Below, piece by piece: positions 2,349 to 63,187 of a stretch of 64,000 nucleotides of DNA. The position numbers and the translations under genes are program-made. Position 1 is the first letter of the stretch. The number at the start of each line of letters is the position of its first letter. This stretch comes from an uncultured Gammaproteobacteria bacterium (lineage in GTDB: Bacteria; Pseudomonadota; Gammaproteobacteria; Steroidobacterales; Rariloculaceae). The notes below the pieces were generated by a model. It made no database searches. It had not been told where the DNA came from and saw only the letters and a list, made by a program, of their open reading frames with translations. Where the stretch lies: NCBI GenBank assembly GCA_963741255.1, contig CAVUHM010000005.1, positions 32,750-96,749 on the forward strand, in the 5' to 3' direction.

Positions 2349-2502
2349 CTCGCGGATCTCTAAGGCGCCGGAGCGCTGCTCACGGATAGCTGCGCCGGCG
2401 TGAGCCGACGAAGGCGCAGAATCCGGAGAGAAACGTCTTGAGCTGCTCGCGCACGCGCGCGTCGATGAGCGCGCCCGACTCGTCGAACACGTCGCCGGCA
2501 CG
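2349..2502. repeat. Right copy of the 154-bp imperfect direct repeat; overlaps the true 3-prime end of the FMN reductase gene
   Basis: Begins with CTCGCGGATCTCTA, a copy of the last codons and stop of the TPR gene at 2108. Ends with GTCGCCGGCACG, exactly as the left copy does. Confidence 0.8.
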
Positions 2503-2951
2503 CGAGACCTGCAAGCGCCCGCCGAACCAGGCTTCCGTGCCGAGCGTTCTCAGCACCGGCAGCCAGGCGGTCTGCGACAGCAGCGTGCCGAAGCCGCCCG
2601 GCGACGCGCCGATCACGCGCGACGGGCCGGCCGCCGAACACGCGCGCGATGTCCTCCGACGGCCGCGACAGCCAGTCGATCGCGTTCTTGAACACGCCGG
2701 GGATCGAGTTGTTGTACTCGGGCGTCACGAGCAGCAGTCCGTCGGCCGCCACGATCTGCTCCTTGAGCGCGTCGACGACCGCGCGGGAGACCCTGCGCCG
2801 CCTCGACGTCGCCGTCGTAGAGCGGGATGCCCTTGATGCGTCGCGATCTCGAGCGTCGCGCCGGAGGGCATGTTGCCGCGGCGGCGCGCAGCAAAGCGCT
2901 GTTCAACGAAGCAGCCCGCAGGCTGCCGGAGATTCCGACGATCGTGGTCAT
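2380..2951 (-). pseudogene. NAD(P)H-dependent FMN reductase (ChrR/YieF-like), disrupted by about 4 frameshifts
   Basis: Family-typical segments are spread over three frames: MTTIVGISGSLRAASLNSALLRAAAA, GIPLYDGDVEAAQGLP, ADGLLLVTPEYNNSIPGVFKNAIDWLSRPSEDIARVFGGRPVA and VIGASPGGFGTLLSQTAWLPVLRTLG. These lie in ORFs 2613-2996, 2360-2752 and 2380-2616. An AAGGAG RBS sits 8 nt before the ATG at 2951. Confidence 0.8.
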
Positions 2952-3031
2952 GGGTCTCGCTCCTTCGAATGGATTCCAGTGATCTGATCTCGTCACTACA
3001 CTACGCTGAAGGTCAAGGAGTGGGGGAGATC

Positions 3032-5123
3032 ATGGCGTTGTTCGTGCGCGTCGCCGCCGTCGTGGCGCCGCTGATGGTGCTTGCCGCGACGACGAGCCTG
3101 GCGCAGAACGGATCCCGGCATTCGGCGCGTGACTTCTCCGCAGCGCGACTCGTCGCGCCGCCGACGGACCAGTGGCCCACGAACGGCGGCAACCTGTACA
3201 ACCAACGCTACTCGCCGCTCGATCGGATCGATACGACCAACGTCGCGCAGCTGAAGGGTGTGTGGCGCGCACGACTGAACGGTTCCGGCCTCGCGCCGCA
3301 GTATTCCGCCGAGGCGCAGCCGCTCGTTTACGACGGCGTCGTGTATGTGAGCACGGGCGCGAACGACGTGTTCGCATTGTCGGTAGAGACCGGTGCGATC
3401 CTGTGGCAATACATGGCGAATCTGCCGGCGGAGCTTCCGTCGGTGTGCTGTGGTTGGAACAACCGCGGAGTGGCGATCAGCGAAGACAAGGTCTTCATGG
3501 GCCGGCTCGACGGCAAGCTCGTTGCTCTGAATCGTGCGTCCGGTGAACCGGTCTGGACGATTCAAGCCGAGCGGCCCCAAGAGAACTTCTCGATCACGCC
3601 CGCGCCGGTCTATTTCGACGGCAAGGTGATCACGGGCTTCGCGGGCGCCGATCGCGGTACGCGCGGGCGCGTGAAGGCCTACGACGCCGACAACGGCGAG
3701 CTGCTTTGGACCTTCTACACGATCCCAGGTCCGGGTGAGCCGGGCCACGAGACCTGGCCCCAGCACAACGATTCGTGGAAATACGGCGGCGGCGCGGTCT
3801 GGCAGACACCGGCGATCGATCCGGAGCTGCAGCTCGTGTATTTCTCCACGGGCAACGCAGGCCCCGACTACAACGGCGCGGTGCGTGCCGGCGACAACCT
3901 GTTCACGGTCTCGATCGTCGCGATCGAGCTTAAGACCGGTAAATACCGCTGGCACTTCCAACAAGTGCATCACGACATCTGGGACTACGACTCGAGCAAT
4001 CCCGTGGTGCTGATGGACTTGGCTCTAGACGGACGCGAGCGCAAGGCGATCGTCGAGGTCGGCAAGACGGGTTGGGCGTACGTTCTCGATCGCGAGACCG
4101 GTGAGCCGATCGTCGGGATCGACGAGCGCCCGGTGATGCAAGAGCCGCAACAAGCGACCGCGGCGACGCAGCCTTTCCCCCGCGGCGACGCGGTCGTCCC
4201 GCACGAGGTCGAGATTGCACCGGAAGGCTTCGAGCTCGTGAACTCAGGGCGGATCTTCACGCCGTTCGTCGGCGAGGATCCGACGATCGTGAAGCCCGGC
4301 ATCTGGGGCGGCGCGAACTGGCCGCCGAGCTCGTACGATCCGACGAAGCAGTGGCTGTTCGTCTGCGCGTCATCGGTAGCCGGGGGGTTCACCGGGCAGG
4401 TCAACGCCGAGTTCGTTGCGCCGCGCGAGGGCGAGCGCTTCGGCATGGGCAACACGCGCGGCACGCCGCTGGCGCGGACGGGCGTGCTCGCGGCGCTCGA
4501 CATGACGACGAACACGCTGGCTTGGCGCTATCGCTGGCAGGAGCAGTGCTACAGCGGCACGCTCGCGACGGGCGGGGATCTGCTGTTCGTCGGCCGTAAC
4601 GACGGACGCCTGACCGCAGTCGATTCGCGAACCGGCCAGCAGCTCTGGGAGTTTCAGACCGGCGCGGGCATGCATGCGCCCATGAGCACATTCGAGCACG
4701 AGGGCAAGCAGTACGTGCTCGCGTATTCCGGCGGCAATGCGCTGATCGGCTCTCCGCGCGGCGACAGCGTGTGGTTGTTCGGCCTCGAGGGCACGTTGCC
4801 ACCCGTCGAGGCCGGTGCGCCGGTCTCGAGGCTCGCGGTCGCGACGACGACTGCGACCGCGGTCGCAGCCGCGGCCGAGGAGATCCGAGCCGGCCGGCAG
4901 GTCTACGACTCCACGTGCGTCGTTTGCCACGGCGAGGACGGCATGGGTGGGCACGGCGGCGGCGCGCCGCTCGACAAGGTTCAAAGCGTCGACAGCGTCG
5001 TCGACATCGTTACGAACGGGCGCAACTACATGCCGGCGCTGACCGCGTTGCTGACGCCGGAACAGATCCGACGCGGTGGCCTCCTACGTCGTCGACGCGT
5101 TCGCGAGCGAAGGCGCGGAATAG
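3032..5123 (+). CDS. PQQ-dependent quinohemoprotein alcohol dehydrogenase-like enzyme (beta-propeller plus C-terminal cytochrome c domain); one shift near 5069
   Basis: Signal peptide MALFVRVAAVVAPLMVLAATTSLAQ follows an AAGGAG/GGGGAG RBS. PQQ propeller motifs are present, including a vicinal CC (PSVCCGWNNRGVAI). The heme site is CVVCHGEDG. After EQI, a 1-nt displacement gives DAVASYVVDAFASEGAE-stop at 5121-5123 in place of the Arg-rich read-through to 5263. Confidence 0.85.
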
Positions 5124-5258
5124 GGGATGACGTTGTGTTAAATATCAGCCAGTTATATGCACAAGTGCGTGTGATGCATGACGCCTTATCGGCACGAGCT
5201 TACGAGCGTTTGACGAAAGGTTGCGGAATCTTCGGATGTGGCTCCGAAGTCACGCCAA

Positions 5259-6263: not shown

Positions 6264-8715
6264 ATGACACGTAACGGATTATCCACGCTCGTGCTACGAA
6301 CCGTCGGCGTTGCTGCCGTCGCGACCGTGTTCGCGGGCTGCGGTTTCATCGGCGAGCCTTCCGTCGCCGAGCGCGCGCCGGAGCAATGGCCGCTCGTCGA
6401 TCGCTATTGCACGGAGTGCCACAACGGCGCCGAGCTCGCGGGCGAGCTCGATTTGGAGCGCATCGGCCCCGATAACGTTGCCGCGCACGCCGAGAAGCTC
6501 GAGATGGCGGTGCGCAAGCTGCGCAGCCATGCAATGCCCCCGCCGAAGGAGCCGCGGCCGGACGAGCCGCAGCTCCAGGCGTTCATCTCCTGGCTCGAGG
6601 ACGCGCTCGACGAAGCCGCCGCCGCGACCCACGGCTACGAGCCGATCGTGCCGCACCGACTGAATCGCAAGGAGTACGCGAACGCAGTCCGCGACCTGCT
6701 CGCGCTCGAAATAGATCCCGTCGAGTTCCTGCCGCAGGACGAAGAGGTCAAACACTTCGACAACATCGCGAGCGGCCTCCAGGTGTCGCCGTCGTTCATC
6801 GAGCAGTACGTCGGCGCGGCTCGGCAGATCGCGGTTCGGGCGGTCGGCCGGCCCGATGCGCGCACGGGCGGCCAGACGTATTTCGCGCCGCCCGGGTCGC
6901 CAGCAGACGCACGTGCAAGGGCTGCCGCTCGGCACTCGCGGCGGCTTCGCCGCCACGCATCTGTTCCCCTCGGACGGCGAGTACGAAGTCAACATCGCCG
7001 ACATGTTCAACCACATCTGGGGCAACACGTCGGAGTTCGAGAATACCGTCGTCGTGACCGTCGACGGGCGCGTCGTGTACGAGACGGTCGTCGGAGGCGA
7101 GGAGGACATGCGCGCCTACGACCAGGTGCAAGACGGCGTGATGGAGAAAGTCAACGCGCGTCTGAAGGACATCCGCTTCACGGCGACGGCGGGCCCGCAC
7201 AAGGTCGGAGTCACGTTCCGTCGCCGCACCTTCGCCGAGTCCGACGATCAGCTTCAGGCGTTCGTGCCCGGCGGCGGCCAGGACCGCGTGTTCCGCGTGC
7301 AGTCGTTCGAGGTCAGCGGCCCGTACAATCCCACGGGCTTGAGCGCGACCCCGAGCCGCGACCGCATTTTTGTCTGCGAACCGTCGAACGCTGCCGACGA
7401 CCAGCTCTGCGCCGAACGCATCCTGAGCGAGCTCGCGACACGCGCGTATCGGCGGCCGCTCACCGAGGAAGACCTTCAAGAGCTGCTCGCGTACTACCGC
7501 GACGGCGTCGCTACGAACGGCTTCGAGGAAGGCATCCGGAGCGGGCTCACGGGCATCCTCGCGAGCCCGTATTTCCTCTACCGCATCGAAATGCCGCCGG
7601 AGCACATTGCCCCCGGCGAGACGTACACCATCGACGACGTGGCGCTCGCGTCGAAGCTATCGTTCTTTCTTTGGAACACGATCCCCGACGACGAGCTGCG
7701 CGACCTCGCCGTGCGCGGCGAGCTCAGCGACGAGCGCGTGCTGCGCGCGCAGGTCGAGCGGATGCTCAAGGATCCGCGCGCCGAGACGCTCGCGAGCAAC
7801 TTCGTCTATCACTGGCTCGACCTGAAGCGCCTCGAGGAAGTCGAGCCCGACACGTCGATCTTCCCGTACGCCTCCGGCAGCGGCGATCCGCGCGAGGACT
7901 ACCTGACCGAGCTCTCGCTGTTCGCGAAGAGCCTATTCGACGAGGACCGCAGCGTCGTCGAGTTCATGACGGCCAAGCACACGTTCGTGAACGAGCGTAT
8001 CGCGCTGCTCTACGGCATCAACAGCGTGAAGGGCGATCGCTTCCAGCGCGTCGAGCTCGAAGACTCGACGCGATGGGGATTGCTGGGTAAGGGCGCGATC
8101 CTGATGGCGGCCGCGTATCCGAACCGCACGTCGCCGGTGCTGCGCGGCGCGTTCATTCTCGAGTACATCGCCGGTGCGCCGCCCGCCACGCCGCCGCCGG
8201 GCGTCGACGCGTTTCCGGAGGCCGAGATCGGTACTGCGAAGGCGCGCACGGTGCGCGACATCATGGCGCAGCACCGCGCGAATCCAACGTGTTTCGCCTG
8301 TCACGGGGTCATGGATCCGCTCGGCTTCGCGCTCGAGAATTTCGATGCCGTTGGTGTTTGGCGCGATGTCGATCGCTACGCGGGCACGCCGATCGATTCG
8401 GCCGCCGAGCTGCCCGACGGCACTGCCGTGACCGGGCCAGACGATCTGCGCGCAGCGCTCATGCGCAACCCCGAGCAGTTCGTACAGACGTTTGCCGAGC
8501 GCTTCCTCATATACGCGCTCGGCCGCACGACGGATTACCGCGACATGCCGGCCGTGCGGAAGATCGTGCGCGAGGCGGGCAAAGAGGATTATCGTTTCTC
8601 GGAATTGGTCTGGCAGGTGGTGGCGAGCGAGCCGTTCCGTATGCGCGTGGCGCCGGAGCTTCCCGCACCGCCGGCGCCCATCGTCGCGCAAGCCGCGGCC
8701 GACGCGGGGGAGTAG
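6264..8715 (+). pseudogene. DUF1592/DUF1587/DUF1585-type heme-binding protein (CxxCH), one +1 frameshift near 6895
   Basis: ORF 6264-8090 carries the N-terminus up to GGQTYFAPPG (CTECHNG heme motif; HRLNRKEYANAVRDLL). ORF 6856-8715 continues with QQTHVQGLPLGTRGGFAATHLFPSDGEYEV and runs to CFACHGVMDPLGFALENFD. It is the usual partner of the DUF1552 gene downstream. Confidence 0.85.
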
Positions 8716-15896: not shown

Positions 15897-15981
15897 CGCC
15901 TGGCACGGCGTGCGCCCGAAGGTGCGCATCGCTTACCATTGCGGCCCTTAGATCCCCCGCGGAACGCTTCGAGGTGGCGCC

Positions 15982-18233
15982 GTGAATAGCCTTTACGTGA
16001 CCACGCCGGCCGGTACCGCGGAGCTCGCCGGGACGAGCTGACGTCGTTCGGCGCGACCGAGGTCAAGGTGTCGCGTGGCGGCGTCGCCTGCACGTCGTCG
16101 CTCGAGCAAGCGTATCGCGCGTGCCTGTGGTCTCGCGTCGCGAATCGCGTGCTACTCCCGATCGCGGAGTTCGCGGCCCCGACCCCCGAGGCGCTGTACG
16201 AAGGTACACGCACCGTGGCGTGGAGCGATCATCTTGGCACCGACGACACGTTGGCCGTCGATTGCACGAGCAGTCGGTCCGCGATCACGCATACGCAATA
16301 CGCTGCGCTGAAGGTCAAGGATGCCATCGTCGATCAGTTTCGCGAGCAGTCCGGAAGCCGGCCGTCCGTCGACGTGGCCGCTCCCGACGTGCGGGTGAAT
16401 CTGCACCTCGACCGCGACGTCGCGACGCTTTCGATCGACCTCTCCGGCGAGAGCCTGCACCGGCGCGGCTATCGCGGGCCGCAGGGTGCGGCGCCGCTCA
16501 AAGAGAACCTCGCGGCCGCGATCCTGCTGCGCTCGGGCTGGCCCAAGCTCGTTGCGACGACGGAGGGCCCGCTCGGCTTCGTCGATCCGATGTGCGGCGC
16601 TGGCAGCCTCACGATCGAGGCCGCACTGATCGCGGCCGACGTCGCACCCGGCGTGCTCCGGAACTACTTCGGGTTCCTGGGTTGGCGCGGGCACGATGAG
16701 GCGCTGTGGCAGCGCCTTTTGACGGAGGCGGCCGAGCGGCGCGCCGCGGCGCGCGTCGACCGCATCGCATTCCGCGCCTACGACCGCGACGCCGCGGCCG
16801 TGCGCGCGACTCTCGAGAACGCGACCCGTGCGGGCTTCGCGAAGGTCATTCATGCGGAGCGGCGCGAGCTCGCCGATTTGCCGCCGGCGCCGGCGCCGCA
16901 CGGTCTCGTCGCCGTGAACCCGCCGTACGGCGAGCGGCTCGGCGAAGCCGAAACGCTCGCGCCGCTGTACGCGCTGCTCGGCGAGAAGCTGAAGCAGAAT
17001 TTCGTGGGATGGCAGGCCGCGGTGTTCACGGGTAATCCGCCGCTCGGCCGCGATCTCAAGATCCGGGCGAAGCGCACGCACGTGATGTTCAACGGGCCGA
17101 TCGAGTGCCGGCTGCTCCGGTTCGACGTCGAGCCGCAGCACTTCGAGACGAAGCGAATGCCGGGCGCGTTGCCGGTATTCGACGCCGAAGCTGCGCGTGC
17201 GCGGCCCGGCGCCGCGATGTTCGCGAATCGGTTGCGTAAGAACTTCGCCTCGCTCGGCGATTGGGCGCGCCGAGAAGGTATCGCGTGCTATCGCGTCTAC
17301 GACGCGGACATGCCCGAGTACGCGTTCTCGATCGATATGTACGCTTTGGGTGTCGAGCCCGAGGCGCAGCGCTGGGTGTACGTGCAGGAGCACGCGCCGC
17401 CGAAGACCATCGAGCCCGCGAAGGCGCGCGCGCGTCGCGAAGAGGCGTTCAGCGTGCTAGCCGAGATCCTCGGCGTGCCGCCCGAGCGCGTGCACGTGCG
17501 CACGCGCCGCAAACAGAAAGGCGGCGCGCAATACGAGAAGCTCGCCGAGCGCGGCGAGTTCGACGTCGTGACGGAAGGCGGCCTCGAGCTCGAGGTGAAT
17601 TTCACCGACTACCTCGATACCGGGTTGTTCCTCGACCATCGTCCAACGCGTGCGCGCATCCGCGAGCTCGCTACAGGCAAGAGATTCTTGAACCTGTTCG
17701 CGTATACGGGCACCGCCTCGGTCTTCGCGGCCGCGGGCGGTGCGCGCTCGACGACGAGTGTCGATCTTTCGCGCACGTACATGGACTGGGCGCGCCGCAA
17801 TCTCGATCGAAACGGTTTCGACGACCAGAGCCGTCACGTGCTGTTGCAGGAGGACGCGTTACGGTGGCTCGACACGCGCACGAGCGAGCGCTACGACCTG
17901 ATCTTTCTCGATCCGCCCACCGTGTCGCGCAGCAAGCGCATGGACGCCGAGCTCGATTTGCAGCGCGACCACGTCGAGCTGATCCGGGCGACGTTGCTGA
18001 AGCTCGCGCCGGATGGGCTTCTGATCTTCTCGAACAACTTTCGCAAGTTCCGGCTCGATGCGGCCGGGCTCGCGGACCTCGACGTCAAGGACGTCACGCC
18101 TACCACGATCCCGAAGGATTTCGCGCGCAGCCCGCGGATTCATCAGTGCTTCGAGATCCGCGTGCCGCGCGGTGCGGCGCGGGCGCCGCGACCCGTGCTA
18201 TCGGTCTGGCATAAGCCGCGCGCAGAGGAATAG
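15982..18233 (+). CDS. rlmL: 23S rRNA methyltransferase RlmL/RlmKL (THUMP plus two methyltransferase domains); one frameshift near 16030
   Basis: A GTG at 15982 after GAGGTGG gives VNSLYVTTPAGTAELAG, matching the E. coli N-terminus MNSLFASTARGLEELL. The sequence then continues in ORF 16068-18233 (ACLWSRVANRVLLPIAEF ... YAALKVKDAIVDQF ... NPPYGERLG). The junction behaves as a 1-nt deletion. Confidence 0.9.
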
Positions 18234-33534: not shown

Positions 33535-33806
33535 GATGCGTCGTATTGCGGTTGTCCAACGATAGCGCGCATCGAATCGAAAACGAAGGCGCCACCCGAT
33601 TCGCTGCAATGAGAACACTGGCGCCGGGGATGAGCGAGCCGCCAATCTCGAAGAAGCCGCCATTTATCCGTAGTATCCGTTCCGGCGGTTGATTGTTCTG
33701 CTGCAATGGGGGGAGTCGTGCAACACGCTATTCGAGAACAGCGGCGGCTGTGCGTCGCGTGGGCCAGCCTCGCGGCAAGTGCATCGCGCACGCGCAGGGC
33801 GCGCGC

Positions 33807-35678: not shown

Positions 35679-36680
<1,002 letters not shown>

Positions 36681-36684
<4 letters not shown>

Positions 36685-45345: not shown

Positions 45346-45354
45346 GTTCGGCTC

Positions 45355-49155: not shown

Positions 49156-49268
49156 CCGCAAGCTTCTCCCGTTGCGAGCGCGCGATACTGACACCGACGC
49201 GCCGAGCGTGTCACGCGACGCGTCTTCTCATGGCGGGTTATATTGCCGCCTCCAACGCGAGGTAAGAC

Positions 49269-50718
49269 ATGAGCTCACACGACGTCCGCAGCGCCGAACG
49301 ACCGGCTCCGGACCGGCTGTTGACCGAAATCGCCGACTACGTGCTGAACTTCCGCGCCGACAGCACTGAAGCGCGGCGGATCGCGCGTTACTGCCTCATG
49401 GACACGCTCGGCTGCGGCATGCTCGCGCTCGGCTTTCCGGCCTGCACGAAACTGCTCGGGCCCGGTGGTGCCGGGCGCGGAGCTCGTGGGCGGCGCGCGC
49501 GTTCCGGGCACGCGTCACGAGCTCGATCCCGTCGCGGCCGCGTTCAACATCGGCGCAATGGTCCGCTGGCTCGACTTCAACGACACGTGGCTCGCGGCCG
49601 AGTGGGGTCATCCGTCCGACAATCTCGGCGCGATACTCGCGGTCGCAGACTATCTCGCACGCAAGCGTGTCGCGCGGCCGCTGACGATGGGCGACGTGCT
49701 GACGGCCATGATCCAAGCGCACGAGATCCAGGGCGTGCTCGCGCTGAACCACAGCTTCAACCGCGTCGGCCTCGATCACGTGCTGCTCGTGCGCGTCGCG
49801 AGCACGGCCGTCGCCGACGCGTTTGCTCGGCGGCAATCGCGACCAGATCGTGAACGCGGTGTCGAACGCGTGGCTCGACGGCGGCGCGCTGCGCAGCCTA
49901 CCGCCACGCGCCGAACACGGGCTCGCGCAAGAGCTGGGCCGCGGGCGACGCGACGAGCCGCGGTGTTCGGCATGCGCTGATGGCATTGACTGGCGAGATG
50001 GGTTATCCGTCGGCTCTTACCGCGAAGGGCTGGGGCTTTCAGGACGTGTTGTTCAAAGGGCGCACGATCGCGCTCGAGCGCCCGCTCGCTTCGTACGTCA
50101 TGGAGAACGTGCTGTTCAAGATCTCGTTCCCGGCCGAGTTTCACGCGCAGACAGCGGTCGAGGCCGCGCTCGCGCTGCATCCGGCCGTCGCGGATCGGCT
50201 CGATGACATCGAGCGAATCGCGATCGAAACGCAGGAGCCCGGTGTGCGAATCATCGATAAGACCGGGTCCGCTCGCGAATCCCGCCGACCGCGATCACTG
50301 CCTGCAGTACATGGTCGCGGTGCCGCTCGTGTTCGGCCGCTTGACGGCCGAGGACTACGAGGACGAAGTCGCGCGCGATCCGCGTATCGATGCGTTGCGC
50401 GCGAGGATGGTCGTCGCGGAGAACCCAGGGTTCAGCCGTGACTACTTGGACGCCGACAAGCGCGCGATCGGCAACGCCGTGCAGGTTTTCTTCAAGGACG
50501 GCTCGCAAACGCAACGTATCGCGATCGACTATCCCGTCGGTCATCGACGCCGGCGCGAGGAGGGAATTCCTTTGCTGGTCGACAAATTCGAGCGCAGCCT
50601 CGCGACGCGGCTCGCGCCCGAGCAATGCGCGCGGATCACGGACGCCTGCGTGGATCAGGCGCGATTCGAGGCGCTGCCCGTCGCAGAGTTCATCGCGTTG
50701 TGGGTGCCGCAGTCGTGA
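49269..50718 (+). pseudogene. prpD: 2-methylcitrate dehydratase PrpD, four +1 frameshifts
   Basis: Consecutive pieces lie in ORFs 49269-49853, 49465-49980, 49823-50206, 49980-50441 and 50203-50718. Examples are [65 protein letters not shown] and [19 protein letters not shown]. Confidence 0.9.
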
Positions 50719-51626
50719 GCACCGGCAAGAAGTTCCGTCGGCTCGTCGCGAAGCGCGCGCCGCTGCAGATCCCGGGCGCGGTCAACGCGTACTGCGCATT
50801 GCTCGCGCAGCGCGCGGGATTCGAGGCGTTGTATCTGTCGGGTGCCGGCGTCGCGAACGCGTCGTTCGGTCTGCCGGATCTAGGGATCACGGCTCTCGGC
50901 GACGTGCTCGAGGATGCGCGGCGAATCACGGCGGCCGTCGACTTGCCGTTGCTCGTCGACGTCGACACGGGATTCGGCAGCGCATTCAACATTGCTCGCA
51001 CCGTGCGCGAAATGGAGCGCGCCGGTGTTGCGGCGATCCACATCGAGGACCAGGAGCAGGCGAAGCGCTGCGGTCACCGGCCGAACAAAGCGACGGTCGA
51101 CGTCGCGGAGATGTGCGACCGCCTCAAGGCCGCTGTCGACGCGCGCCACGATGACGCGTTCGTGATCATGGCGCGGACGGATGCGTTCGCGCGCGAAGGC
51201 CGCGAGGCGGCGCTAGAGCGCGCCGGTGCATACGTCGCTGCCGGCGCCGACATGCTCTTCGCGGAGGCGCTACATACGCTCGACGACTACGCCGCGTTTG
51301 CACGTGGCGTTCGGGTTCCAGTGCTCGCGAACCTCACGGAGTTCGGCTTGACGCCGTACTTCACCGTGGACGAGCTCGCGAAAGCCGGCGTGAAGCTCGT
51401 GCTGTACCCGCTGTCGGCGTTTCGCGCGATGAGTCGCGCAGCGGAGCGCGTCTACGCGGCGATCCGCTCGGAAGGCACGCAGCGCGGTGTCATCGATGCG
51501 ATGCAAACGCGCGAAGAACTGTACGGCGTGCTCGATTACTACGACTACGAGCGCAGGCTCGATGCGCTGTTTGCGACGAACGACAAGACGCGGCAGCAGA
51601 AACGCGCGCGGAAGAAACGACGCTAG
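50715..51626 (+). CDS. prpB: Methylisocitrate lyase PrpB
   Basis: The GTG start overlaps the prpD stop (GTGA). [30 protein letters not shown]...DTGFG...[18 protein letters not shown]...ARTDA. Part of ORF 50625-51626. Intact. Confidence 0.9.
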
Positions 51627-53633
51627 CGTTGTGCCGCCGTCTTGTGCGACGGCCCGGTCGGCGGCAGCGTGGAGTCGTCGATCAGCTCGAGTGGCGCATC
51701 GGACAGACCGAGCAGGTCGAGCAGGTCGTCGCTCTCGGCCGGCTTCGGCTCAGGCGGAGCCGCAGCGGCCGGTTTCGCGGCGGGCCTCGGCTTGGGCGCC
51801 GCTGCCGCGGGCTTAAGCGGAGGCGCGCTCGGGACCGGCGGCGACTCCTGCATGCCGGGCATTTCGTCTTCCCAGCTCGCTGACGAATTGAGCGCGGCGG
51901 TCATCAGATCGAGCTCCGCGTCGCCGAACAGTGTCTCGGCCATCGAGTCGCTGACGTCGTCGATCGACTTGGCCACCGCAATCGCACGCATCGTCTGTGT
52001 CTGGCGCAGCAAGTCCTCGTCCTCGGCCGGCGCGGACTGGGTGGTGCGCTAGGTGTGGGCTTGGGCGGTACGCTCGGCGTAGCCGCGGCGGCGGGTTTCG
52101 CAGCGGGCGCCGGGGGCGGCGGTTGCTGAGCCGAAACGGGGGCAGGCGTTGCGGGTTTCGGCGGCGCCGCGGTTTTCGGGGTCGAATACGCGGTCTCGAG
52201 GCGCTTCACCGGCGGTGACGGCGCAGGAGCGGGTGGCGAGCTCGGGACGACCGCTGGGCGTGAGGGTGCCGCAGCACCGCTCACGGGCCGTGGCGTTCCT
52301 GCCGGTGGCGCGGTAGCCGCAGGCTTCGCGGCGGCCGGCGTCGTCGTCGCTGCTCGTTGCTGCTGGACCGGCGCCGGCGAAGGCACTTCGACGGCATCCG
52401 TGAGGATCGGGAACTCGCTGCTCGGGACGTCCGGGAGGTCGGTCGCGCCGCCGTCGAACTCGATCGCGACCGACGGGGTGCGAGTCGGTGCCGTCGTCGA
52501 AGCGGCAGGCGGTGCGACAGGCACCGGTGCAGCGGGCCGGGTATCGCTTGCGGGGCCAGAACAGCTGGTGCTGTCGGCGTCGTGCGTGCCACCAGGGGGC
52601 TCGCGGCGGCTGGGACCGGTGTCGGTATTGCGACCGACGGCGTGACAGTGGTTGGCGTTGGCGTCGTGGCACGTGCTGTCGACGGCGTCGCGACACGAGC
52701 GGCGGCGGGCGGCGGCATCGTGACGATCGGCTCCGCGCGCGGCGCGGGCTCGACGCGTTCCGGCGCCGGTGCCGCCGCGGCGGGCTTCGGCGGGGCCGTC
52801 GGGGTCGCCGCTGCTGGCGTCACTTCGGCGAGGCCGAGCATCGTCGCTGCGTTCGACAACGTTGCAACAGTCAGTGTTTTCTCGAGCCCCGTCGCTGCCA
52901 GGGTCAGAGCCGTCTCGCAGAGATTGTTCGCGAGCCGCGCGATGCCGCCGGAGTAGCGGTACAGCGCGGCGGCGACGCCGGGCGCGAATACCGCATCGAA
53001 GCGGCCGCCCGCGCCGGCGACCTGGTGCCGCAGGTAGTCGTTGAGCTCGGCCTCCGTGAACGGGTCGAGCTGTGCCTTGAGGCGAACCCTCTGGCGCAGC
53101 GCGTCGAGCGACGACGCACCGAGATGTCGTTCGAGCCCCGGTTGACCGAGCAGCACCACGTTCGCGCCGGTGTTGCCGGCCGCGTCAGGCGACGTCAACG
53201 AATCGAGCGCTCGCAGCACCTCGGCCGAGAGATCTTCCGTGCGTTCCGCGACGACGAATAGGCGCGATGCGGTCGTGCTCATCTCGCTCTGAAATTGTCG
53301 CCACAGCTGCAGGCGTTCGATGCGCGTGGTTCGTAGCGTCGCGATGCCGAGCTCGATCAGCAACAGCTCGAGGAGCTCCGATGCGTTCGTCGGTGTGCCG
53401 TTCAGCCACGCGATCGCAAGGCGTGTCGTGGTCGCGCGCAAGGCGGTCGACGTCAGGGTGGTCTTACCGACACCGGCCGGGCCTGTCACCACGATCACCG
53501 AGCTTGGGCTTGCGAGCGCGACTTTGAAGCTGGCGATCAGACGGGTGTGCTGGGCGCTCAAGTACACAGCCGTGTCCAAGGAGATGCCTTCGTGGAACAG
53601 GCTCTTCGTAAGGCCGAAGTGTGGGTGATACAT
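51623..53633 (-). pseudogene. ExeA/GspA-like AAA+ ATPase with a long Pro/Ala-rich region and an acidic C-terminal domain; at least two frameshifts
   Basis: N-terminus MYHPHFGLTKSLFHEG...VTGPAGVGKTT (ORF 52281-53633). The PA-rich middle is in ORF 51904-52524. The C-terminus EDEDLLRQTQTMRAIAVAKSIDDVSDSMAETLFGDAELDLMTAALN is in ORF 51623-52012. The path through the low-complexity part is uncertain. Confidence 0.65.
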
Positions 53634-53803
53634 GGCGCCCGGGTCTGCCTTCGGATTGGAATGCGGGAAAGTTTGACCCCTTATGGGGGCATGGTTCGTG
53701 AAGCGCCGTCACAACTTATGCAAAACACACCCGGGCTGCGCTCGATCGCTCGCGTTCCCTATAATTAGGACTGGATCAACGTGTTAGCTGGGTGATTCCG
53801 CGA

Positions 53804-54967: not shown

Positions 54968-55811
54968 CTAACGAACGAAGCGGTCGAGCCAAGGCTGAAG
55001 CTCTTCGGCCCACACATCGAACCCCGGCGGCTGTATTCCGAATCGCCGCCGCTCGCACCCCACCGCGACCACATGGTGCGTGTTGTGCGTGCCGTCTGGC
55101 AGGTAGAAGCGTTCGCCGAAATCGGCGTAGAAGACCGTTTGGTCGTCGATCAGCTCGCGAGCACACAGCCGCTGTGTCTTGCGGCGATTTCACGCCATTC
55201 TTCGCGAGCGTCGCGAAGTCCTCGCGGGAACGGCGCTAGGAGCAGGATCTTGGCCTGCGGCTGGCGCGCGCCGGATCTCGGCGATCACGGCGTTCGTACA
55301 CCGAGTGATCAGCTGAACGGGCGCGGTCGGCGTCGAAGCGCGACGTCGGGCGGCGACGCCGGCCCCGGAGTAAGGGCACGAAGCACGACGAGCTTCGCGC
55401 GATAGCCCGCGAGCTCGCCGTGCTGCATCCGCCAAACGAAGCTCGAGGGGCGAGTGCCTTGCGAGCCGAAGTTCGCGGCTTTCAGTGGAGCCGAACCGGC
55501 GATTCCAAACGTGGTCAGGCCGCGTTCCTTCCAATGCCACATCTCGGTATTGGTGGTGCCGAAGAACACGAAGTCGATGTCGCCGGCTTGCTGCGCGAGG
55601 TCGATGAACCTGTCGTGCCGGTGCCGCCTCGAGCGCATGCGTCAGCGTGCTCGCGGGTGCGTCGGCGCTGACGGCGTCCAAACGCTCGGAAGGCGGGGCG
55701 ACCTCCACGAACTTGCCGCGACAGGCTGTTGTGCCCAAGCGGCGTAGCCCAGCGCGGCGCCGAGCACGGTGACGAGTGCGAGCCGCCCGCGACTGCGCCG
55801 CAGTGACTCAC
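54968..55811 (-). pseudogene. SGNH/GDSL-family hydrolase-like protein, several frameshifts; block I reads GTT instead of GDS
   Basis: Signal segment SLRRSRGRLALVTVLGAALGYAAWAQQP. Block I is IDFVFFGTTNTEMW and block II is ANFGSQG. AKILLLAPFPRG follows. The C-terminus is TVFYADFGERFYLPDGTHNTHH...FDVWAEELQPWLDRFVR-stop. The pieces lie in three frames. The putative GTG start overlaps the M56 stop (GTGA). Confidence 0.5.
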
Positions 55812-56656
55812 CGACAGGCGCGGCCCAGCAGCTCGATACGCTCTGCGAGGCGCTTCGCCCGAGCGGCTCGTCCAGGTGCAGCCGAGTGGGAGGAATCGCC
55901 GCCGAAATCTGCGTCTGCAACAGGGCGCTGCGCATACGTACGGCGCGCGGCCGGTCGCGCGGCGATCACGGCAGCGTCGCACGCGAGCTCCTGATCTGTC
56001 CTGAGCGCGATTCGCGGCGAGATGCACGAGCGGATTGAACCAGTTGCACGCAGCGCACGACCTCGACGAGCGCGTTGACGAGGGTGTGACCCGAGACTCG
56101 ATGCATGTCTTCGTGCGCGAGGATCAGTGCGCGCTCGTGCGGCGTCGAAGCGCGATGGTCGAAATCAGCGGCAGAACGAGCCTCGGGCCGCAGCACGCCG
56201 ACCAGCGCGGGCCCGACGGAAGGATCGCGCGCGAGCCGACGGGTGCTCGACGATCGATCGTGCCATCAACGCGACTGCCGCCGAGCAGCCAGAACACGAT
56301 CCGACACGTCAGCGAGCGTCGGAACGGCAGCGACGTTTCGGCGCGGCGAGACCGCGATCTGCTCGATGCTCAGCGGCAAGGTTGCGGCCGGAGTCGATCG
56401 ACTCGTCGGCGCATCGCAGCGCTCGCAGCGACTACGCGGTGACTCGCATATCCCTGGGATCACGACGATCTGCTGGCGCGCGGGAACGAAGCTGGCAATC
56501 GGCAACGATCGGCACGATCCAACCACAACGAATACGCGACGTTGGCGCCGAGCCGACGCAGCACGAAAGGGCGCAGCGCGACCACGAGCAGGATCGCGAC
56601 ACTCGCGACGACGATTCACGCGAATCAATGCTAGCGAGAATCGTTTCAGCGTTCAT
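55808..56656 (-). pseudogene. M56 family (BlaR1-like) metallopeptidase, short form, multiple frameshifts
   Basis: MNAETILASIDSR is followed by the TM pieces IVVASVAILLVVALRPFVLRRLGANVAYSLWL and IVPIVA, each in a different frame. The HExxH motif is ERALILAHEDMHRVSGH. WFNPLVHLAANR is also present. The start overlaps the blaI-like stop by 11 nt. Confidence 0.7.
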
Positions 56657-57020
56657 GCTCGAACTTCTCGATCAGACGTTTCAGCTCCGTCGACCTCGTC
56701 GCGGCGTCAGATCGTGGCGGTCCGAGAAGTGCGTAACGAACGGCGCAATGCGCCCGCCGAACAAGCGTGTCGATCAACCGGCGGCTCTGCTCGTGGACGT
56801 AGTCCTCGCGCGGGATCAACGGGCTGTAGAGGTAGCGCCGCCCGTCCGGCGCGGCGGCCAGCGCCTTTTTCTTCACGAGGCGAGTCAGGAACGTGCGGAT
56901 CGTGCCGGGCGTCCAGTCGCGATCGTTCTCCATCGCCTCGACGACGTCGTCGGCGCTGAGCGGCCCTTGGGCTCGCCAGAACACGTCCATGACCTTGCCT
57001 TCGGCTTCGCTGATCTTCAT
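56646..57020 (-). CDS. BlaI/MecI/CopY family transcriptional repressor (open frame, but with an apparent internal out-of-frame segment)
   Basis: The ATG at 57020 gives MKISEAEGKVMDVFWRAQGPLSADDVVEAMENDRDWTPGTIRTFLTRLVKKKAL, the winged-helix part. Between about 56694 and 56772 the alternative frame reads FGGRIAPFVTHFSDRHDLTP, which is family-like, whereas the annotated frame reads VRRAHCAVRYALLGPPRSDAATRST. Confidence 0.8.
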   Translation of the reverse strand: MKISEAEGKVMDVFWRAQGPLSADDVVEAMENDRDWTPGTIRTFLTRLVKKKALAAAPDGRRYLYSPLIPREDYVHEQSRRLIDTLVRRAHCAVRYALLGPPRSDAATRSTELKRLIEKFEHER

Positions 57021-57699: not shown

Positions 57700-58542
57700 C
57701 CGCCCGCATGTTGTTGCGTTGGGCCGTGCTCATACACGCGGCGCTATGCCCGATCGCAGTCGGGACCGATGTTGCCGGCGGCGTCAGGCGACGACGGCCG
57801 CGGTGTCGGACGCGTGCAGCGCCGAGCGAGTCCGAGCGTCGCCCGTTGAGCTCGACGACACGCTGAACAAAGTCGCGCGCGAGGTCTCGTACGACACTCC
57901 GTTGGACGACGCGATGCAGCGCGTCGGCTATCTCGCCGAGAAGTCGACGTCGCTGTATTTCAAAGTCCTGGCCGACGACGCGGCAATCAAAGAGATCATC
58001 GCGGATCGGTATTGCGTCGGCGTTAGAGACGAGGGCTTCACGGAGATCGGCGTCTATCATTTCCATCTCGAGACTTGGATCGTGTTGGCGCGACCGATCG
58101 CGAAGCCTGCGATAGGAGACACTGCAATCATCGAAGCGCGAGTGCTCGAGCTCGTGAATGCGGCGCGCGCACAGTCTCGTCGGTGCGGCGACCGCGAGCT
58201 CGTCGCGGCGCCGCCGTTGACGCTTGCCAGCGAGCTGACCGTGGCCGCGGCGCGTCATGCGGGCGATATGGCTCTGAACGGCACATTCCGGCATCAAGGC
58301 TCGGACGGTAGCGAGTCGCGCAACGAGTGGCCGCGGCCGGCTATCGGTGGCGCTCGACCGGCGAGAACATCGCAGCCGGCCAACGCACAGCGGCAACGGT
58401 CGTGGCCGCATGGCTCGAGAGCCCCGAGCACTGTGCGAATCTCATGGACCGCGCGTTCAACGAAATGGGCGTCGCGTTCGCGCTGGCGGCGTCGGGGAGC
58501 CCCGATATCTACTGGACGCAAGTCTTCGGCGCGCGGCTATAG
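57696..58542 (+). pseudogene. Secreted CAP/SCP/PR1-like domain protein, two frameshifts
   Basis: The start overlaps the TPR stop (ATGA). The signal MTARMLLRWAVLIHAALCPIAVG is in ORF 57603-57866. The middle is in ORF 57596-58552 (ARVLELVNAARAQSRRCG...AAARHAGDMALNGTFRHQGSDGS). The C-terminus is in ORF 58327-58542 (GENIAAGQRTAATVVAAWLESPEHCANLMD...YWTQVFG). Confidence 0.75.
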
Positions 58543-60297: not shown

Positions 60298-60423
60298 GTC
60301 GAGCGTGCTCCTCGGTGCGCGCCAAAGTGTAGCAGCGATCGCGAGTCCGGCACTCGCCGCCCTCTTGCGCGGTCGGCGGCGGCGCGTCGTATGATACGGA
60401 CGAGTAGGGCAAGCGGGGGCACC

Positions 60424-61372: not shown

Positions 61373-61461
61373 CCTCGTCGACTAACGGCGGTAGCGTCCG
61401 GGGCGCGCCGTGGACGCCAGTTCCTATCTGTTTGTACACTTGAGAAAGACTCCGTAACTAC

Positions 61462-62344
61462 ATGATTAAGCTGGCCATTGGAGGTGTTCCAGAACACTTC
61501 AATTTGCCGTGGCACCTGGCGCTCGAGGCGCGACGGTTTGCGGCATTCGACATCGAGGTCAGTTGGCGCGACTTTCCGGATGGCTCCGGTGCCATGGCCA
61601 AGGCATTGCGGGAGGGTCAGCTCGACGCCGCGTTGTTGCTGACCGAGGGAGCCATTGCCGGAGTCGCCGACGGCGGCGGATTTCAGATCGTTAGCCTTTA
61701 CGCCGACTCGCCACTCTTATGGGGAATCCACGTGCCGGCCGCGTCGCGGTTCCGCGCCGTGGCGGAGATTCGCGGTGCACGCTATGCCGTGAGTCGTCGC
61801 GGTTCCGGCTCGCACCTGATGGCCGTCGTGCACGCGCGCGATCGCGGTTGGACGGCCGACGATCTCGAGTTCGTAATCGTGCGCAATCTTGCGGGCGCGG
61901 TCGATGCATTCGCGGCAGGCGCCGCGGACGTGTTCTTCTGGGAAAAGTTCATGACCAAGCCGTTAGTCGACGCCGGCCAGTTCCGACGCATCGGCGATTT
62001 CGCGGCGCCGTGGCCCGCGTTCGTCGCGTGTGTGGCCGATGCCGCGACGTGCCGACCAACGCGCCGCGTTCACGCGCGTACTCAGGCTCGTGCTGGATGA
62101 GGCTCGCGCGTTGCGCGCGCGGCCCGATGCCGCATCGCTGATCGCCGATCGATATGGGCTACTGGTCACCGACGTCGTCGAATGGCTGGCGACGACGCGT
62201 TGGAGCGACCGCGTCAGCGTTGCACCGCGCGATCTCGACGCGGCATGCACGGCGCTGGGCTCGCTCGGTGTACTCGCGCGCGCCGTGAGCGCGCGAGATT
62301 GCATCGCGACGGCTACCGGATCGCGAAGCCCGCGCGCGGATTGA
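61462..62344 (+). pseudogene. NMT1/THI5-like substrate-binding-domain protein (no signal peptide), one +1 frameshift near 62040
   Basis: MIKLAIGGVPEHFNLPWHLA...GSGAMAKALREGQLDAALLLTEG is in ORF 61462-62100. The C-terminus is in ORF 62030-62344. Confidence 0.6.
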
Positions 62345-62699
62345 ACTCTTTACCGTCGCCGCGTGTGGCTTTGACCCACGCGGCCGCGGGGCGGCCGTCG
62401 CGCATCGGGTTGCCAGTGATCGTGATCGCGGTGCCCGGCGCAAAGTCGCTTCTGCGAATACCGGCGCGCGTCAGCGTGCTCGGGCCCTCGGCCTCGAAGC
62501 CCCATGTCGTGACGGTGCCATCGTCGTTCTTGACGTCGACCAGCAGCCACGAGTGCGGATTCGTGTATTGAAACTCCTTGACCGTGCCCGTGACCGTGAC
62601 TTCTTTGGCGTCGTCGAACATGACCGCCGAGTGGTGGGCGAACGTCGGCGTCGCGAGCAACGTCGCGCTGCCGAGCAAGCATGCCAAGGTTTTCCTCAT
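62313..62699 (-). CDS. DUF6152 family exported protein
   Basis: The ATG at 62699 lies 6 nt after AAGGAG. MRKTLACLLGSATLLATPTFAHHSAVMFD...VTGTVKEFQYTNPHSWLLVDV. Its 3-prime end overlaps the convergent gene by 32 nt. Confidence 0.8.
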   Translation of the reverse strand: MRKTLACLLGSATLLATPTFAHHSAVMFDDAKEVTVTGTVKEFQYTNPHSWLLVDVKNDDGTVTTWGFEAEGPSTLTRAGIRRSDFAPGTAITITGNPMRDGRPAAAWVKATRGDGKEFNPRAGFAIR

Positions 62700-62730
62700 G
62701 GCCATCTCCTTACTAGTCGTCTGTACCATT

Positions 62731-63187
62731 CTAATGCCTACGTGCGGTGCGCGGAATCCGAGCGGATTCTACTCGCGCTGCGACGCGGTTCTTGCGTTCC
62801 AATATGTCACGTAGCAGCGGCAGGTCGTCTACGGCCGGCGCATCGACGGGGATCGTGCGAATGTACGCATAGATGTCGGCGAGTTCCTGGGCCGAGGCGT
62901 CCGGGAACGCCGGCATGTTCGGCACCGGCGAGCTCTGCACGAACGTGATGAAGCCGTCCTGCGTGTAGTTCAAAGGCACGAGACGCCGCTCGCCGCTCTG
63001 AGCGTCGAAGCCGTGGCATGCGTAACAGTTGAACGTGTCCGCGAACAGCGGTTGTCCGCGGGCGGCATCCCCGACGATCGCTGTGTTTCCGGGCTGGCGG
63101 TTGCGCGGACAACACGGCGGCCGCGAGCGTGCCGAGCAACGCGAGTGCGATACGCGAGCGAGCCGCGCAGTGCGAGTTGTGCCTCAT
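62731..63187 (-). pseudogene. Exported monoheme cytochrome c, one +1 frameshift near 63095
   Basis: The signal MRHNSHCAARSRIALALLGTLAAAVLSAQP is in ORF 62807-63187. GNTAIVGDAARGQPLFADTFNCYACHGFD...NMPAFPDASAQELADIYAYI follows, in the frame of ORF 62731-62979. Confidence 0.75.

What the first reader, a model, noticed from the sequence alone, without database searches (positions are those of the whole stretch)
2380..63187. About 40 percent of genes are frameshifted, and nearly all shifts behave as single-base insertions
Recognisable families are split across frames in about 25 genes. These are FMN reductase, DUF1592, DUF4159, AKR, serine hydrolase, S46, octaheme cytochrome, the second PQQ dehydrogenase, ABC ATPase and permease, HAD, the 38677 gene, the second GGDEF-EAL, AtoE, the 47442 gene, rlmJ, prpD, the ExeA-like gene, SGNH, M56, CAP, the NMT1-like gene and the cytochrome c at 62731. 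rlmL and the first PQQ dehydrogenase also carry single shifts at their termini.

I took start coordinate mod 3 of consecutive ORF-track pieces. The downstream piece is displaced by +1 in the direction of translation in at least 30 junctions:
- prpD 49269, 49465, 49823, 49980, 50203: frames 0,1,2,0,1
- permease 36681, 36895, 37100, 37623, 37792: frames 0,1,2,0,1
- DUF4159: frames 0,1,2,0
- minus-strand genes step by -1 in coordinate terms, which is the same direction relative to translation

Only about 5 junctions go the other way (rlmL, CAP x2, ExeA-like x2). One site can be read directly as an extra G in a G-run at 28115-28117.

Natural bacterial indel spectra are deletion-biased, whereas some long-read chemistries give insertion-dominated errors. 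An assembly or polishing artefact is therefore the more economical explanation. If the shifts are real, this would be an unusually decayed genome that lacks IS elements.
Basis: partly seen in the sequence, partly recalled or inferred. Interest (0 to 1): 0.6.

Follow-up and report, generated by a model that had tools for sequence, protein, structure and literature searches.

The report
Single-base insertion errors in an assembly
About four in ten genes in this soil-type gammaproteobacterial contig are broken by extra single bases that no related genome carries. The pattern fits consensus errors of a long-read assembly, not real gene decay, so the finding is ordinary but a useful quality warning.

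Summary
I place 82 frame-shifting events in 25 of about 60 genes (42%). Seventy behave as single-base insertions, 5 as two-base insertions and 7 as single-base deletions (binomial p = 3.5e-14).

Alignments to orthologous contigs show that each alignment-placed extra base is private to the window. Removing only these bases restores full-length reading frames and full-length Pfam domains. There are no in-frame stop codons in 6,659 aligned codons of 16 broken genes. The broken genes are no more diverged from their orthologs than the intact genes.

The events are patchy: about 1.3% of bases in 48.3-49.2 kb and 54.97-57.02 kb, and none over several stretches of 4-7 kb. About 64% of the precisely placed inserted bases do not duplicate a neighbour, so homopolymer slippage is not the cause.

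Nine related short-read contigs have intact genes. Four related contigs with Flye-style names, two of them from the Nanopore-only Microflora Danica catalogue, carry their own private, insertion-dominated single-base indels and split genes.

Verdict: an assembly or polishing artefact (confidence about 0.93). The reads were not available. Low interest.

The parts
2383..2902 (-). FMN reductase gene with two +1 shifts, near 2634 and 2785.
   Evidence: Frame segmentation. The repaired protein matches Pfam FMN_red positions 2-137 of 152 across both junctions. No ortholog DNA was available.
2870..5130 (+). First PQQ dehydrogenase with a C-terminal cytochrome c domain. It has one +1 shift near 5065, just after ...LTPEQI. 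The true C-terminus ...DAVASYVVDAFASEGAE is in the next frame.
   Evidence: Three-frame reading and Pfam domains. The junction was read directly and not checked against an ortholog.
6264..8715 (+). DUF1587/DUF1595/DUF1592/DUF1588/DUF1585 protein with one +1 shift near 6887.
   Evidence: DUF1587 lies in one ORF and the other four domains in the next frame. The repaired protein shows all five domains in the canonical order.
15926..15926 (.). Private extra G in the intergenic region upstream of rlmL.
   Evidence: Alignment to L161, L163 and L164.
15982..18233 (+). rlmL with one missing base at about 16031, in the N-terminal region.
   Evidence: Multiple alignment. Frameshift-aware alignment to the 749-residue L161 ortholog. 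The Pfam RlmL_1st domain starts only at profile position 28 in the window ORF.
20661..21383 (+). DUF4159 gene with extra bases at 20752 (A), 20807 (A) and 21175 (A).
   Evidence: Pfam DUF4159 positions 9-202 of 202 span the 21175 junction.
21406..22339 (+). Aldo-keto reductase with one extra base between about 21479 and 21505, inside the signal-peptide region.
22992..24283 (+). Serine hydrolase (beta-lactamase family) with extra bases at about 23716 and at 23809 (A, with flanks identical to all orthologs).
   Evidence: Pfam Beta-lactamase positions 3-324 of 329 span both junctions.
24297..26359 (-). S46 peptidase with extra bases at 24451 and 25465.
   Evidence: The repaired protein matches Pfam S46 positions 1-697 of 698. 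It has full-length homologs at up to 89% identity.
27745..28870 (-). Multihaem (octahaem-type) cytochrome with an extra G in the run at 28115-28117.
   Evidence: Sequence. Five homologs place one extra base at 28120-28123, and P0370 reads MYRHGVTCYDCH.
33718..35634 (+). Second PQQ dehydrogenase with one extra C in the run at 34265-34268.
   Evidence: Alignment to L166 (89.5% nucleotide identity), L167, L168 and L163. DP alignment. The repaired protein matches Pfam PQQ positions 1-595 of 595 and has homologs at up to 96% identity.
35733..36684 (+). ABC transporter ATPase with an extra T at 36053.
   Evidence: Pfam ABC_tran positions 2-136 of 137 span the junction.
36681..38025 (+). ABC-2 permease with extra bases at 36773, 36815 (two bases), about 36890, about 37061, 37568 and 37779.
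   Evidence: Pfam ABC2_membrane_2 and ABC2_membrane_3 span the junctions.
38026..38680 (+). HAD hydrolase with one extra G near 38254.
   Evidence: Pfam Hydrolase positions 2-183 of 191 span the junction.
38677..39698 (+).
   Evidence: The repaired frame is open for 323 codons.
41608..43732 (-). Second HAMP-GGDEF-EAL protein with one +1 shift near 42084.
   Evidence: The EAL domain is cut at profile position 90 of 236 in the ORF and complete, positions 3-236, in the repaired protein. No ortholog DNA was available.
46025..47430 (+). Short-chain fatty acid transporter (AtoE) with extra bases at about 46613-46617 and in the G run at 47130-47133.
   Evidence: Pfam SCFA_trans positions 2-447 of 453.
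47442..48107 (+).
48328..49160 (-). rlmJ with ten extra bases (48443, 48486, 48595, 48627, 48746, 48831, 48870, 48897, 48971, 49053) and one missing base (48996). This is hot patch 1.
   Evidence: Alignment to six orthologs. After the 11 fixes the frame is open for 274 codons and matches Pfam RlmJ positions 1-238 of 245.
49269..50718 (+). prpD with extra bases at about 49458-49464, 49814, 49896 (G) and 50268 (T).
   Evidence: Alignment to eight orthologs. Both PrpD domains are full length after repair.
51626..53636 (-). ExeA-like AAA ATPase with three deletion-like shifts, at about 52537, 52031 and 51730. The first two lie in a Pro/Ala-rich linker.
   Evidence: tblastn frames. DP alignment to L016 and L006 orthologs. 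This is the only gene in which the shifts all go the other way.
54971..56656 (-). BlaR1-type M56 peptidase fused to an SGNH/GDSL domain. It is one gene and carries about 20 single and 5 double extra bases. This is hot patch 2.
   Evidence: The ortholog in L169 is one 533-residue protein. DP alignment gives 64% identity over 524 codons with 25 shifts and no stop codons.
56649..57020 (-). BlaI/MecI repressor with extra bases at about 56765, 56704 and 56691.
   Evidence: DP alignment to the L169 ortholog gives 82% identity. Pfam Penicillinase_R positions 1-114 of 115. Homologs reach 92% identity.
57750..58542 (+). CAP-domain protein with one deletion-like shift near 58327.
   Evidence: Pfam CAP positions 1-117 of 117 span the junction in the repaired protein. 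No ortholog DNA was available.
61462..62344 (+). NMT1/phosphonate-binding-like protein with one extra base near 62047.
   Evidence: tblastn frames 1 then 2. DP alignment to the L001 ortholog.
62734..63187 (-). Small cytochrome c with a +1 shift near 63108, between the signal peptide and the haem domain.
   Evidence: Frame segmentation. The Pfam Cytochrome_CBB3 domain lies upstream of any start codon in its own frame. Inferred; no ortholog was available.

Best explanation
The window is a stretch of a GC-rich (66%) environmental gammaproteobacterial contig. Its consensus sequence carries uncorrected sequencing noise, almost all of it spurious single extra bases.

**Shown**
- The alignment-placed extra bases are absent from every orthologous sequence.
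- They fall in coding and non-coding DNA.
- They are mostly not copies of a neighbouring base.
- They are concentrated in patches.
- They are the only kind of damage present.

**Inferred**
- The contig comes from a noisy long-read assembly. The most likely route is a Nanopore-only Flye assembly with light Medaka polishing, as used for the related Microflora Danica genomes.
- Local read support was too thin, or too mixed between strains, for the consensus step to vote the extra bases out.
- The genes are intact in the organism. Gene callers split them only because of the errors.
For: 1. Alignments show 41 single extra bases private to the window against 2-8 orthologs each. A protein-to-DNA alignment adds 28 more events in the BlaI and M56-SGNH genes.
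2. The direction is 70 insertion-like against 7 deletion-like shifts, p = 3.5e-14.
3. Removing only these bases reopens full frames and restores full-length Pfam domains: S46 1-697/698, PQQ 1-595/595, RlmJ, PrpD N and C, SCFA_trans and EAL.
4. There are no in-frame stop codons in 6,659 aligned codons of 16 broken genes.
5. Nucleotide identity to orthologs is not reduced in the worst-hit genes. For rlmJ it is 0.747, against 0.754 among the orthologs. For prpD it is 0.812 against 0.813. Untouched genes such as the third PQQ dehydrogenase give 0.765 against 0.857.
6. 25 of 39 placed insertions differ from both neighbours, and A/T are inserted about as often as expected from base composition. This is noise-like and not slippage-like.
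7. The events are clumped, with an index of dispersion of 6.5. Two patches reach about 1.3% of bases, and several stretches of 4-7 kb have none.
8. Technology control. Short-read contigs L002, L003, L006, L016, L161, L163, L164, L166 and L169 have full-length orthologs and almost no private single-base indels. Flye-named contigs L001, L167 and L168 have about 20 private single-base insertions against 3 deletions, in other genes, and visibly split genes. L167 and L168, 96-98% identical, differ by 37 single-base gaps in 19 kb.
9. L001 and L007 are Microflora Danica MAGs. That catalogue is Nanopore-only, assembled with Flye and polished with one round of Medaka. Its authors report signs of sequencing error in low-coverage genomes (PMC12313526).
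Against: - No reads, coverage values or provenance are available. Exact-protein look-ups did not find the source contig.
- Published Nanopore assembly error profiles are deletion-dominated and tied to homopolymers (PMC12007338). The profile here is the opposite, so the responsible platform or polishing step is not established.
- No sequence motif, including GATC and CCWGG, marks the sites.
- One gene (ExeA-like) has three shifts that all run in the deletion direction. I cannot explain this.
- Six of the 70 insertion-like shifts rest on frame analysis, five of them with Pfam support. None of the six has ortholog DNA.
Confidence: 0.93

Rival explanations
1. The shifts are real. The organism carries a recent burst of single-base insertions, for example from a mutator defect or an intercalating mutagen, and about 40% of its genes are young pseudogenes.
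For: The broken genes still look conserved. A very recent event would also give this. Nothing in the sequence alone proves what the reads say.
Against: - Known spontaneous bacterial indels are deletion-biased and occur in repeats or runs (established knowledge). Here they are insertion-biased 10:1, and 64% lie outside runs.
- There are no nonsense codons, larger deletions or excess substitutions alongside about 80 indels.
- A 1.6 kb gene with 25 hits sits next to several kilobases with none, which is hard to reconcile with a genome-wide mutational process.
- The same kind of damage appears independently, at other sites, in three related long-read contigs. It appears in none of nine short-read contigs.
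Confidence: 0.03
2. This is a classic Nanopore, 454 or Ion Torrent homopolymer-length error: the extra bases are over-called runs.
For: A few sites do lie in runs: GGGG at 47130, CCCC at 34265 and GGG at 28115-28117.
Against: Only 3-4 of 39 placed sites lie in runs of three or more, and 25 of 39 are not adjacent to an identical base. Published Nanopore profiles are deletion-dominated.
Confidence: 0.04
3. This is a consensus artefact of collapsed strain mixtures. Where two co-assembled strains differ, the polisher keeps both alleles side by side, which adds one base.
For: - At several sites the inserted base and its neighbour are both alleles seen among the orthologs: 49896 A/G, 49053 C/T and 48746 T/G.
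- This would explain the lack of neighbour duplication and the patchiness.
- The Microflora Danica authors stress microdiversity as a problem.
Against: This is anecdotal and I ran no statistical test. Codon-position enrichment has too little power at this sample size, and I have no population data. It is a sub-type of the best explanation, not a true alternative.
Confidence: 0.25
4. The shifts are programmed or tolerated frameshifts (recoding), and the genes are expressed normally.
For: None beyond the consistent +1 direction.
Against: No shared slippery motif or enriched k-mer marks the sites. Up to 25 shifts occur in one gene. The shifts are absent from all orthologs.
Confidence: 0.003

Closest known systems
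Gene-fragmenting indel errors in long-read assemblies (for example as treated by the Kastor tool, PMC12007338; also Watson & Warr 2019, recalled from my own knowledge)
   Same: Small indels private to one assembly split otherwise conserved genes into adjacent ORFs. They can be repaired by comparison with orthologs, and their density depends on read support.
   Different: The published profile is deletion-dominated and linked to homopolymers. Here insertions outnumber deletions about 10:1, and two thirds are not next to an identical base.
Nanopore-only Flye plus Medaka metagenome assemblies of the Microflora Danica long-read catalogue (PMC12313526)
   Same: The closest genome-scale relatives found, L001 and L007, belong to this catalogue. 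L001, and the Flye-named ENA contigs L167 and L168, carry the same kind of private single-base insertions and split genes.
   Different: The window itself could not be traced to that project. I could not check whether L167 and L168 belong to it, because no supplementary tables are held. The window's local error density, up to 1.3%, is higher than in those contigs.
Pseudogene-rich genomes under reductive evolution (Mycobacterium leprae, recent host-restricted symbionts; from established knowledge)
   Same: A large fraction of genes is interrupted.
   Different: Those genomes show mixed lesions (nonsense codons, deletions of all sizes, IS elements), deletion bias and relaxed selection. None of these is seen here.

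Membership tests
Assembly or polishing indel artefact | The lesions are private to the one assembly, and orthologs in independent assemblies lack them. | tested here: met
   41 extra bases are private against 2-8 orthologs. 28 more were placed by protein-to-DNA alignment.
Assembly or polishing indel artefact | Only small indels are present, and repairing them alone restores full-length conserved proteins. | tested here: met
   Open frames after repair. Full-length Pfam domains. 0 stop codons in 6,659 codons.
Assembly or polishing indel artefact | The affected genes show no sign of relaxed selection or extra divergence. | tested here: met
   Identity to orthologs is not lower in hit genes. Third-position excess of differences is kept in prpD, S46 and the serine hydrolase; it is weaker in rlmJ.
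Assembly or polishing indel artefact | The errors also occur outside genes, and their density varies with local support. | tested here: met
   Intergenic insertion at 15926. Index of dispersion 6.5. Coverage itself is not available.
Assembly or polishing indel artefact | The same signature is seen in other assemblies made the same way and is absent from short-read assemblies of relatives. | tested here: met
   L001, L167 and L168 compared with nine short-read contigs.
Assembly or polishing indel artefact | Accurate reads do not support the extra bases. | not testable with these tools
   No reads or provenance. The source was not found.
Classic Nanopore homopolymer error profile | Deletions outnumber insertions, and the errors sit in homopolymer runs. 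| tested here: not met
   70 insertions against 7 deletions. 25 of 39 sites are outside any run. Reference profile in PMC12007338.
Genuine pseudogene-rich (decaying) genome | Mixed lesion spectrum with nonsense codons and larger deletions, and a deletion bias. | tested here: not met
Genuine pseudogene-rich (decaying) genome | Elevated divergence or loss of codon-position pattern in the broken genes. | tested here: not met
Programmed ribosomal frameshifting | A conserved slippery site at the shift, shared with orthologs. | tested here: not met
   No enriched k-mer at the sites. The shifts are absent from orthologs.

The most novel reading that the evidence does not exclude
The insertions are real. 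An uncultured soil gammaproteobacterium would have suffered a very recent, insertion-only, non-templated frameshift burst confined to patches of its chromosome, with about 40% of genes inactivated and no other kind of mutation yet. This would be a mutational process with no known bacterial precedent.
Probability: 0.02. Interest if true: 0.75.

Novelty: not a real feature. Interest (0 to 1): 0.12.

Why it matters
For the biology of this organism it does not matter, because the genes are almost certainly intact. It matters for data quality.

- A contig like this yields dozens of truncated or chimeric protein predictions. It lowers apparent genome completeness and can be mistaken for genome decay.
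- The error profile is insertion-dominated, mostly outside homopolymers, and concentrated in patches that reach over 1% of bases. It differs from the textbook Nanopore profile.
- The same profile is shared by related public long-read contigs, so it may be a systematic property of a widely used assembly and polishing route at low or mixed coverage.
- Frameshift-aware annotation or ortholog-guided correction would recover the proteins.

Tried and rejected
- **Tracing the source.** Exact look-ups of three intact window proteins found nothing. One look-up of a homolog, P0260, also failed.
- **Metagenome scan with RecQ.** It gave only distant loci with no usable synteny beyond the gene itself.
- **tblastn with all stop-to-stop ORFs of the relatives.** In this GC-rich DNA the off-frame ORFs of homologous DNA also match, which is misleading. 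I replaced it with DNA alignments and a frameshift-aware protein-to-DNA alignment.
- **Ab initio frame segmentation.** It gave correct directions where shifts are sparse but broke down in the two dense patches. The SGNH domain was not recognisable until an ortholog was found.
- **Candidate frameshifts that turned out to be gene boundaries.** These are 12160, 33507 (Uma2), 57688 (TPR protein then CAP protein), 61006 and 62766.
- **A window 'deletion' at 36410.** It was flagged against two error-prone references and I rejected it, because the C-terminal ABC domain is in frame.
- **Methylation or sequence-motif association.** By eye GATC looked enriched, but the test gave 17% against an 11% background, and no 4-mer survives multiple testing.
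- **Checking whether ERZ25039547 and ERZ25039494 are Microflora Danica assemblies.** No supplementary tables are held.
- **The DUF6152 protein of L161.** It is not orthologous to window 19601-20614 (26% identity), so that alignment was discarded.

Full report
**What the window is.** The 64 kb window has 66% G+C. It encodes a typical set of environmental gammaproteobacterial genes: PQQ dehydrogenases, cytochromes c, DUF1592-family proteins, S46 peptidase, RecQ, prpBD and rlmL/rlmJ. A scan of species-representative genomes with the intact PrpB protein found no identical record. It did find syntenic contigs at 78-81% protein identity, all uncultured Gammaproteobacteria. Further syntenic contigs came from homologs of repaired window proteins:
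- S46, up to 89% identity.
- The second PQQ dehydrogenase, up to 96% identity.
- BlaI, up to 92% identity.

Together these relatives cover about 12-41.6 kb, 44.8-54.9 kb, 54.97-57.02 kb, 58.5-60.3 kb and 61.4-62.0 kb of the window.

**Checking the observation.** I used three independent routes.

1. *Block-wise MAFFT alignments.* I aligned the window to 2-8 orthologous DNA segments and listed, for every sequence, the gap runs private to it. The window has 41 private single extra bases at sites that could be placed. The short-read contigs have almost none inside genes.
2. *A frameshift-aware protein-to-DNA dynamic programme.* Penalties for one extra and one missing base were equal. Run with ortholog proteins, it reproduced the same sites and resolved regions the alignments could not.
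   - The relative L169 encodes a single 533-residue M56 peptidase-SGNH fusion. This maps to window 56656-54971 at 64% identity, with 20 single and 5 double extra bases and no missing base.
   - The adjacent BlaI gene has 3 extra bases.
3. *Pfam scans of repaired proteins.* Proteins rebuilt by joining the frames give single, essentially full-length matches across the junctions. Examples are FMN_red, S46 (1-697/698), PQQ (1-595/595), Beta-lactamase, ABC_tran, ABC-2 permease, HAD, EAL, SCFA_trans, both PrpD domains, RlmJ and CAP. The unrepaired ORFs give truncated matches.

**Tallies.** There are 70 insertion-like single-base shifts, 5 two-base insertions and 7 deletion-like shifts. Two-sided binomial p = 3.5e-14, and p = 4e-11 if every two-base event is counted as a deletion. 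Six of the 70 rest on frame analysis, five of them with Pfam support, and none has ortholog DNA. These are two in FMN reductase, and one each at the first PQQ dehydrogenase C-terminus, the DUF1592 protein, the second GGDEF-EAL protein and the small cytochrome c. By my inventory 25 of about 60 genes are hit, or 42%.

- SGNH and M56 are one gene, and BlaI is also hit.
- CAP has one supported shift, and the ExeA-like gene has three.
- Several apparent junctions are ordinary gene boundaries.

**What kind of lesion.**
- *Neighbour duplication.* For 39 alignment-placed insertions I asked which single-base deletion best restores agreement with the orthologs. In 25 cases the removed base differs from both neighbours. 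In 10 it sits in a run of two, and in 3-4 in a run of three or more. This is about what random insertion of a random base would give, and far from homopolymer slippage.
- *Inserted base.* All four bases are inserted, with A and T roughly in proportion to composition.
- *Sequence context.* No 4-mer is enriched around the sites after correction for multiple tests, and neither are GATC or CCWGG.
- *Non-coding DNA.* One insertion lies in intergenic DNA, at 15926.
- *Distribution.* The events are strongly clumped, with an index of dispersion of 6.5 for 2 kb bins. rlmJ has 10 insertions in 830 bases. BlaI and M56-SGNH have 28 events in 2.05 kb. Regions 8-14 kb, 30-34 kb and 58.5-62 kb have none or one.

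**Real decay or artefact.** Several tests bear on this.
- *Lesion spectrum.* Removing only the private indels reopens complete frames: 323 codons for the 38677 gene, 274 for rlmJ after 11 fixes and 482 for prpD. Across 16 broken genes and 6,659 aligned codons there is not one in-frame stop codon, against about 72 frameshift events.
- *Divergence.* The window's nucleotide identity to orthologs is no lower in the worst-hit genes than in untouched ones. For rlmJ it is 0.747, against 0.754 among the orthologs themselves. For prpD it is 0.812 against 0.813. The third PQQ dehydrogenase, with no shifts, gives 0.765 against 0.857. Differences remain concentrated at third codon positions in prpD, S46 and the serine hydrolase, and less clearly in rlmJ. 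A gene that had drifted long enough to collect ten indels should also have collected many substitutions and some stop codons.
- *Mutational bias.* Natural bacterial indels are deletion-biased and favour repeats (established knowledge). The spectrum here is the opposite.
- *Technology control.* Nine short-read contigs of relatives encode full-length S46, beta-lactamase-family, AKR, DUF4159, RlmL, PQQ, BlaI and M56-SGNH proteins, and show essentially no private single-base indels in genes. Their names follow MEGAHIT, SPAdes or JGI conventions. Four relatives with Flye-style contig names behave like the window, but at other positions.
   - L001 has about seven private single-base insertions and no deletions.
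   - L167 has four insertions and one deletion.
   - L168 has nine insertions and two deletions.
   - The gene tables of L167 and L168 show split ABC ATPase, permease, DUF3500 and BKACE genes.
   - L167 and L168 are 96-98% identical yet differ by 37 single-base gaps in 19 kb of mostly coding DNA.

L001 and L007 are Microflora Danica long-read MAGs. [quoted passage not shown] Its authors report signs of sequencing error in lower-coverage genomes (PMC12313526).

**How it most likely arose.** It is shown that the extra bases are private, noise-like, patchy and unaccompanied by any other damage, and that the same signature tracks assembly technology among relatives. It is inferred that the window comes from a comparable long-read assembly, and that in the dense patches the consensus rested on very few reads or on a mixture of strains.

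A possible sub-mechanism is retention of both alleles at sites where co-assembled strains differ. At several sites the inserted base and its neighbour are both alleles seen among orthologs (for example 49896, 49053 and 48746). I could not test this.

The main caveat is that the published Nanopore assembly profile is deletion-dominated and homopolymer-linked (PMC12007338). I therefore cannot say which platform or software step produces the insertion bias. I also cannot explain why the ExeA-like gene alone has three shifts in the deletion direction.

**Comparison with what is known, and verdict.** Indel errors in long-read assemblies that fragment genes are well known. This window is an example with an unusual, insertion-dominated, non-homopolymer profile. 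It is not a biological feature.
- Interest is low (0.12). The residual value is as a quality warning about this window, and probably about related public long-read contigs.
- A real insertion-only mutational burst is not excluded. I give it about 2-3%.

Noticed in passing
In the short-read relative L169 they are one 533-residue BlaR1-type M56 peptidase fused to a GDSL/SGNH hydrolase domain, preceded by a BlaI repressor. L169 also has a second BlaI/M56 pair without the SGNH domain.
   Followed up: partly
L167 and L168 whole loci; L001 919, 3337, 6074, 13604, 15621, 15633: Public contigs of relatives with Flye-style names carry their own private single-base insertions and split genes (ABC ATPase, permease, DUF3500, BKACE, Alginate_exp). 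L167 and L168 differ by 37 single-base gaps in 19 kb. The problem is therefore not limited to this window.
   Followed up: partly
window 51626-53636: The ExeA-like AAA ATPase has three shifts that all run in the deletion direction, two of them in a Pro/Ala-rich low-complexity linker. Almost every other gene has only insertions. Unexplained.
   Followed up: partly
window 32971-33663: A Uma2-family (putative restriction endonuclease-like) gene sits between DUF2237 and the second PQQ dehydrogenase. In L166, L167 and L168 those two genes are directly adjacent, so this looks like a window-specific insertion.
   Followed up: no
window 41600-44850: A block of about 3.2 kb holds the second HAMP-GGDEF-EAL gene and an ABC substrate-binding protein. 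It has no counterpart in the syntenic relatives L001, L003, L006 and L016, where the flanking genes are adjacent.
   Followed up: no
window 44966-45928 and 58549-60807: Long ORFs in this GC-rich DNA mislead. The 320-residue ORF at 44966-45928 is an off-frame overlap of two real genes (44857-45354 and 45358-45884). The 752-residue ORF of the third PQQ dehydrogenase over-extends a protein of about 590 residues.
   Followed up: yes
window 19601-20614, 38677-39698, 62313-62729; L161, L163, L164: DUF6152-domain proteins recur three times in the window and many times in the relatives, usually next to PQQ dehydrogenases, cytochromes c or TAT-signal proteins. This suggests a periplasmic redox-associated paralog family of unknown role.
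   Followed up: no
window 47546: The window has a 5-base gap relative to four orthologs in the 47442 gene. This fits a natural 6-base deletion plus one spurious extra base, but could not be resolved.
   Followed up: no
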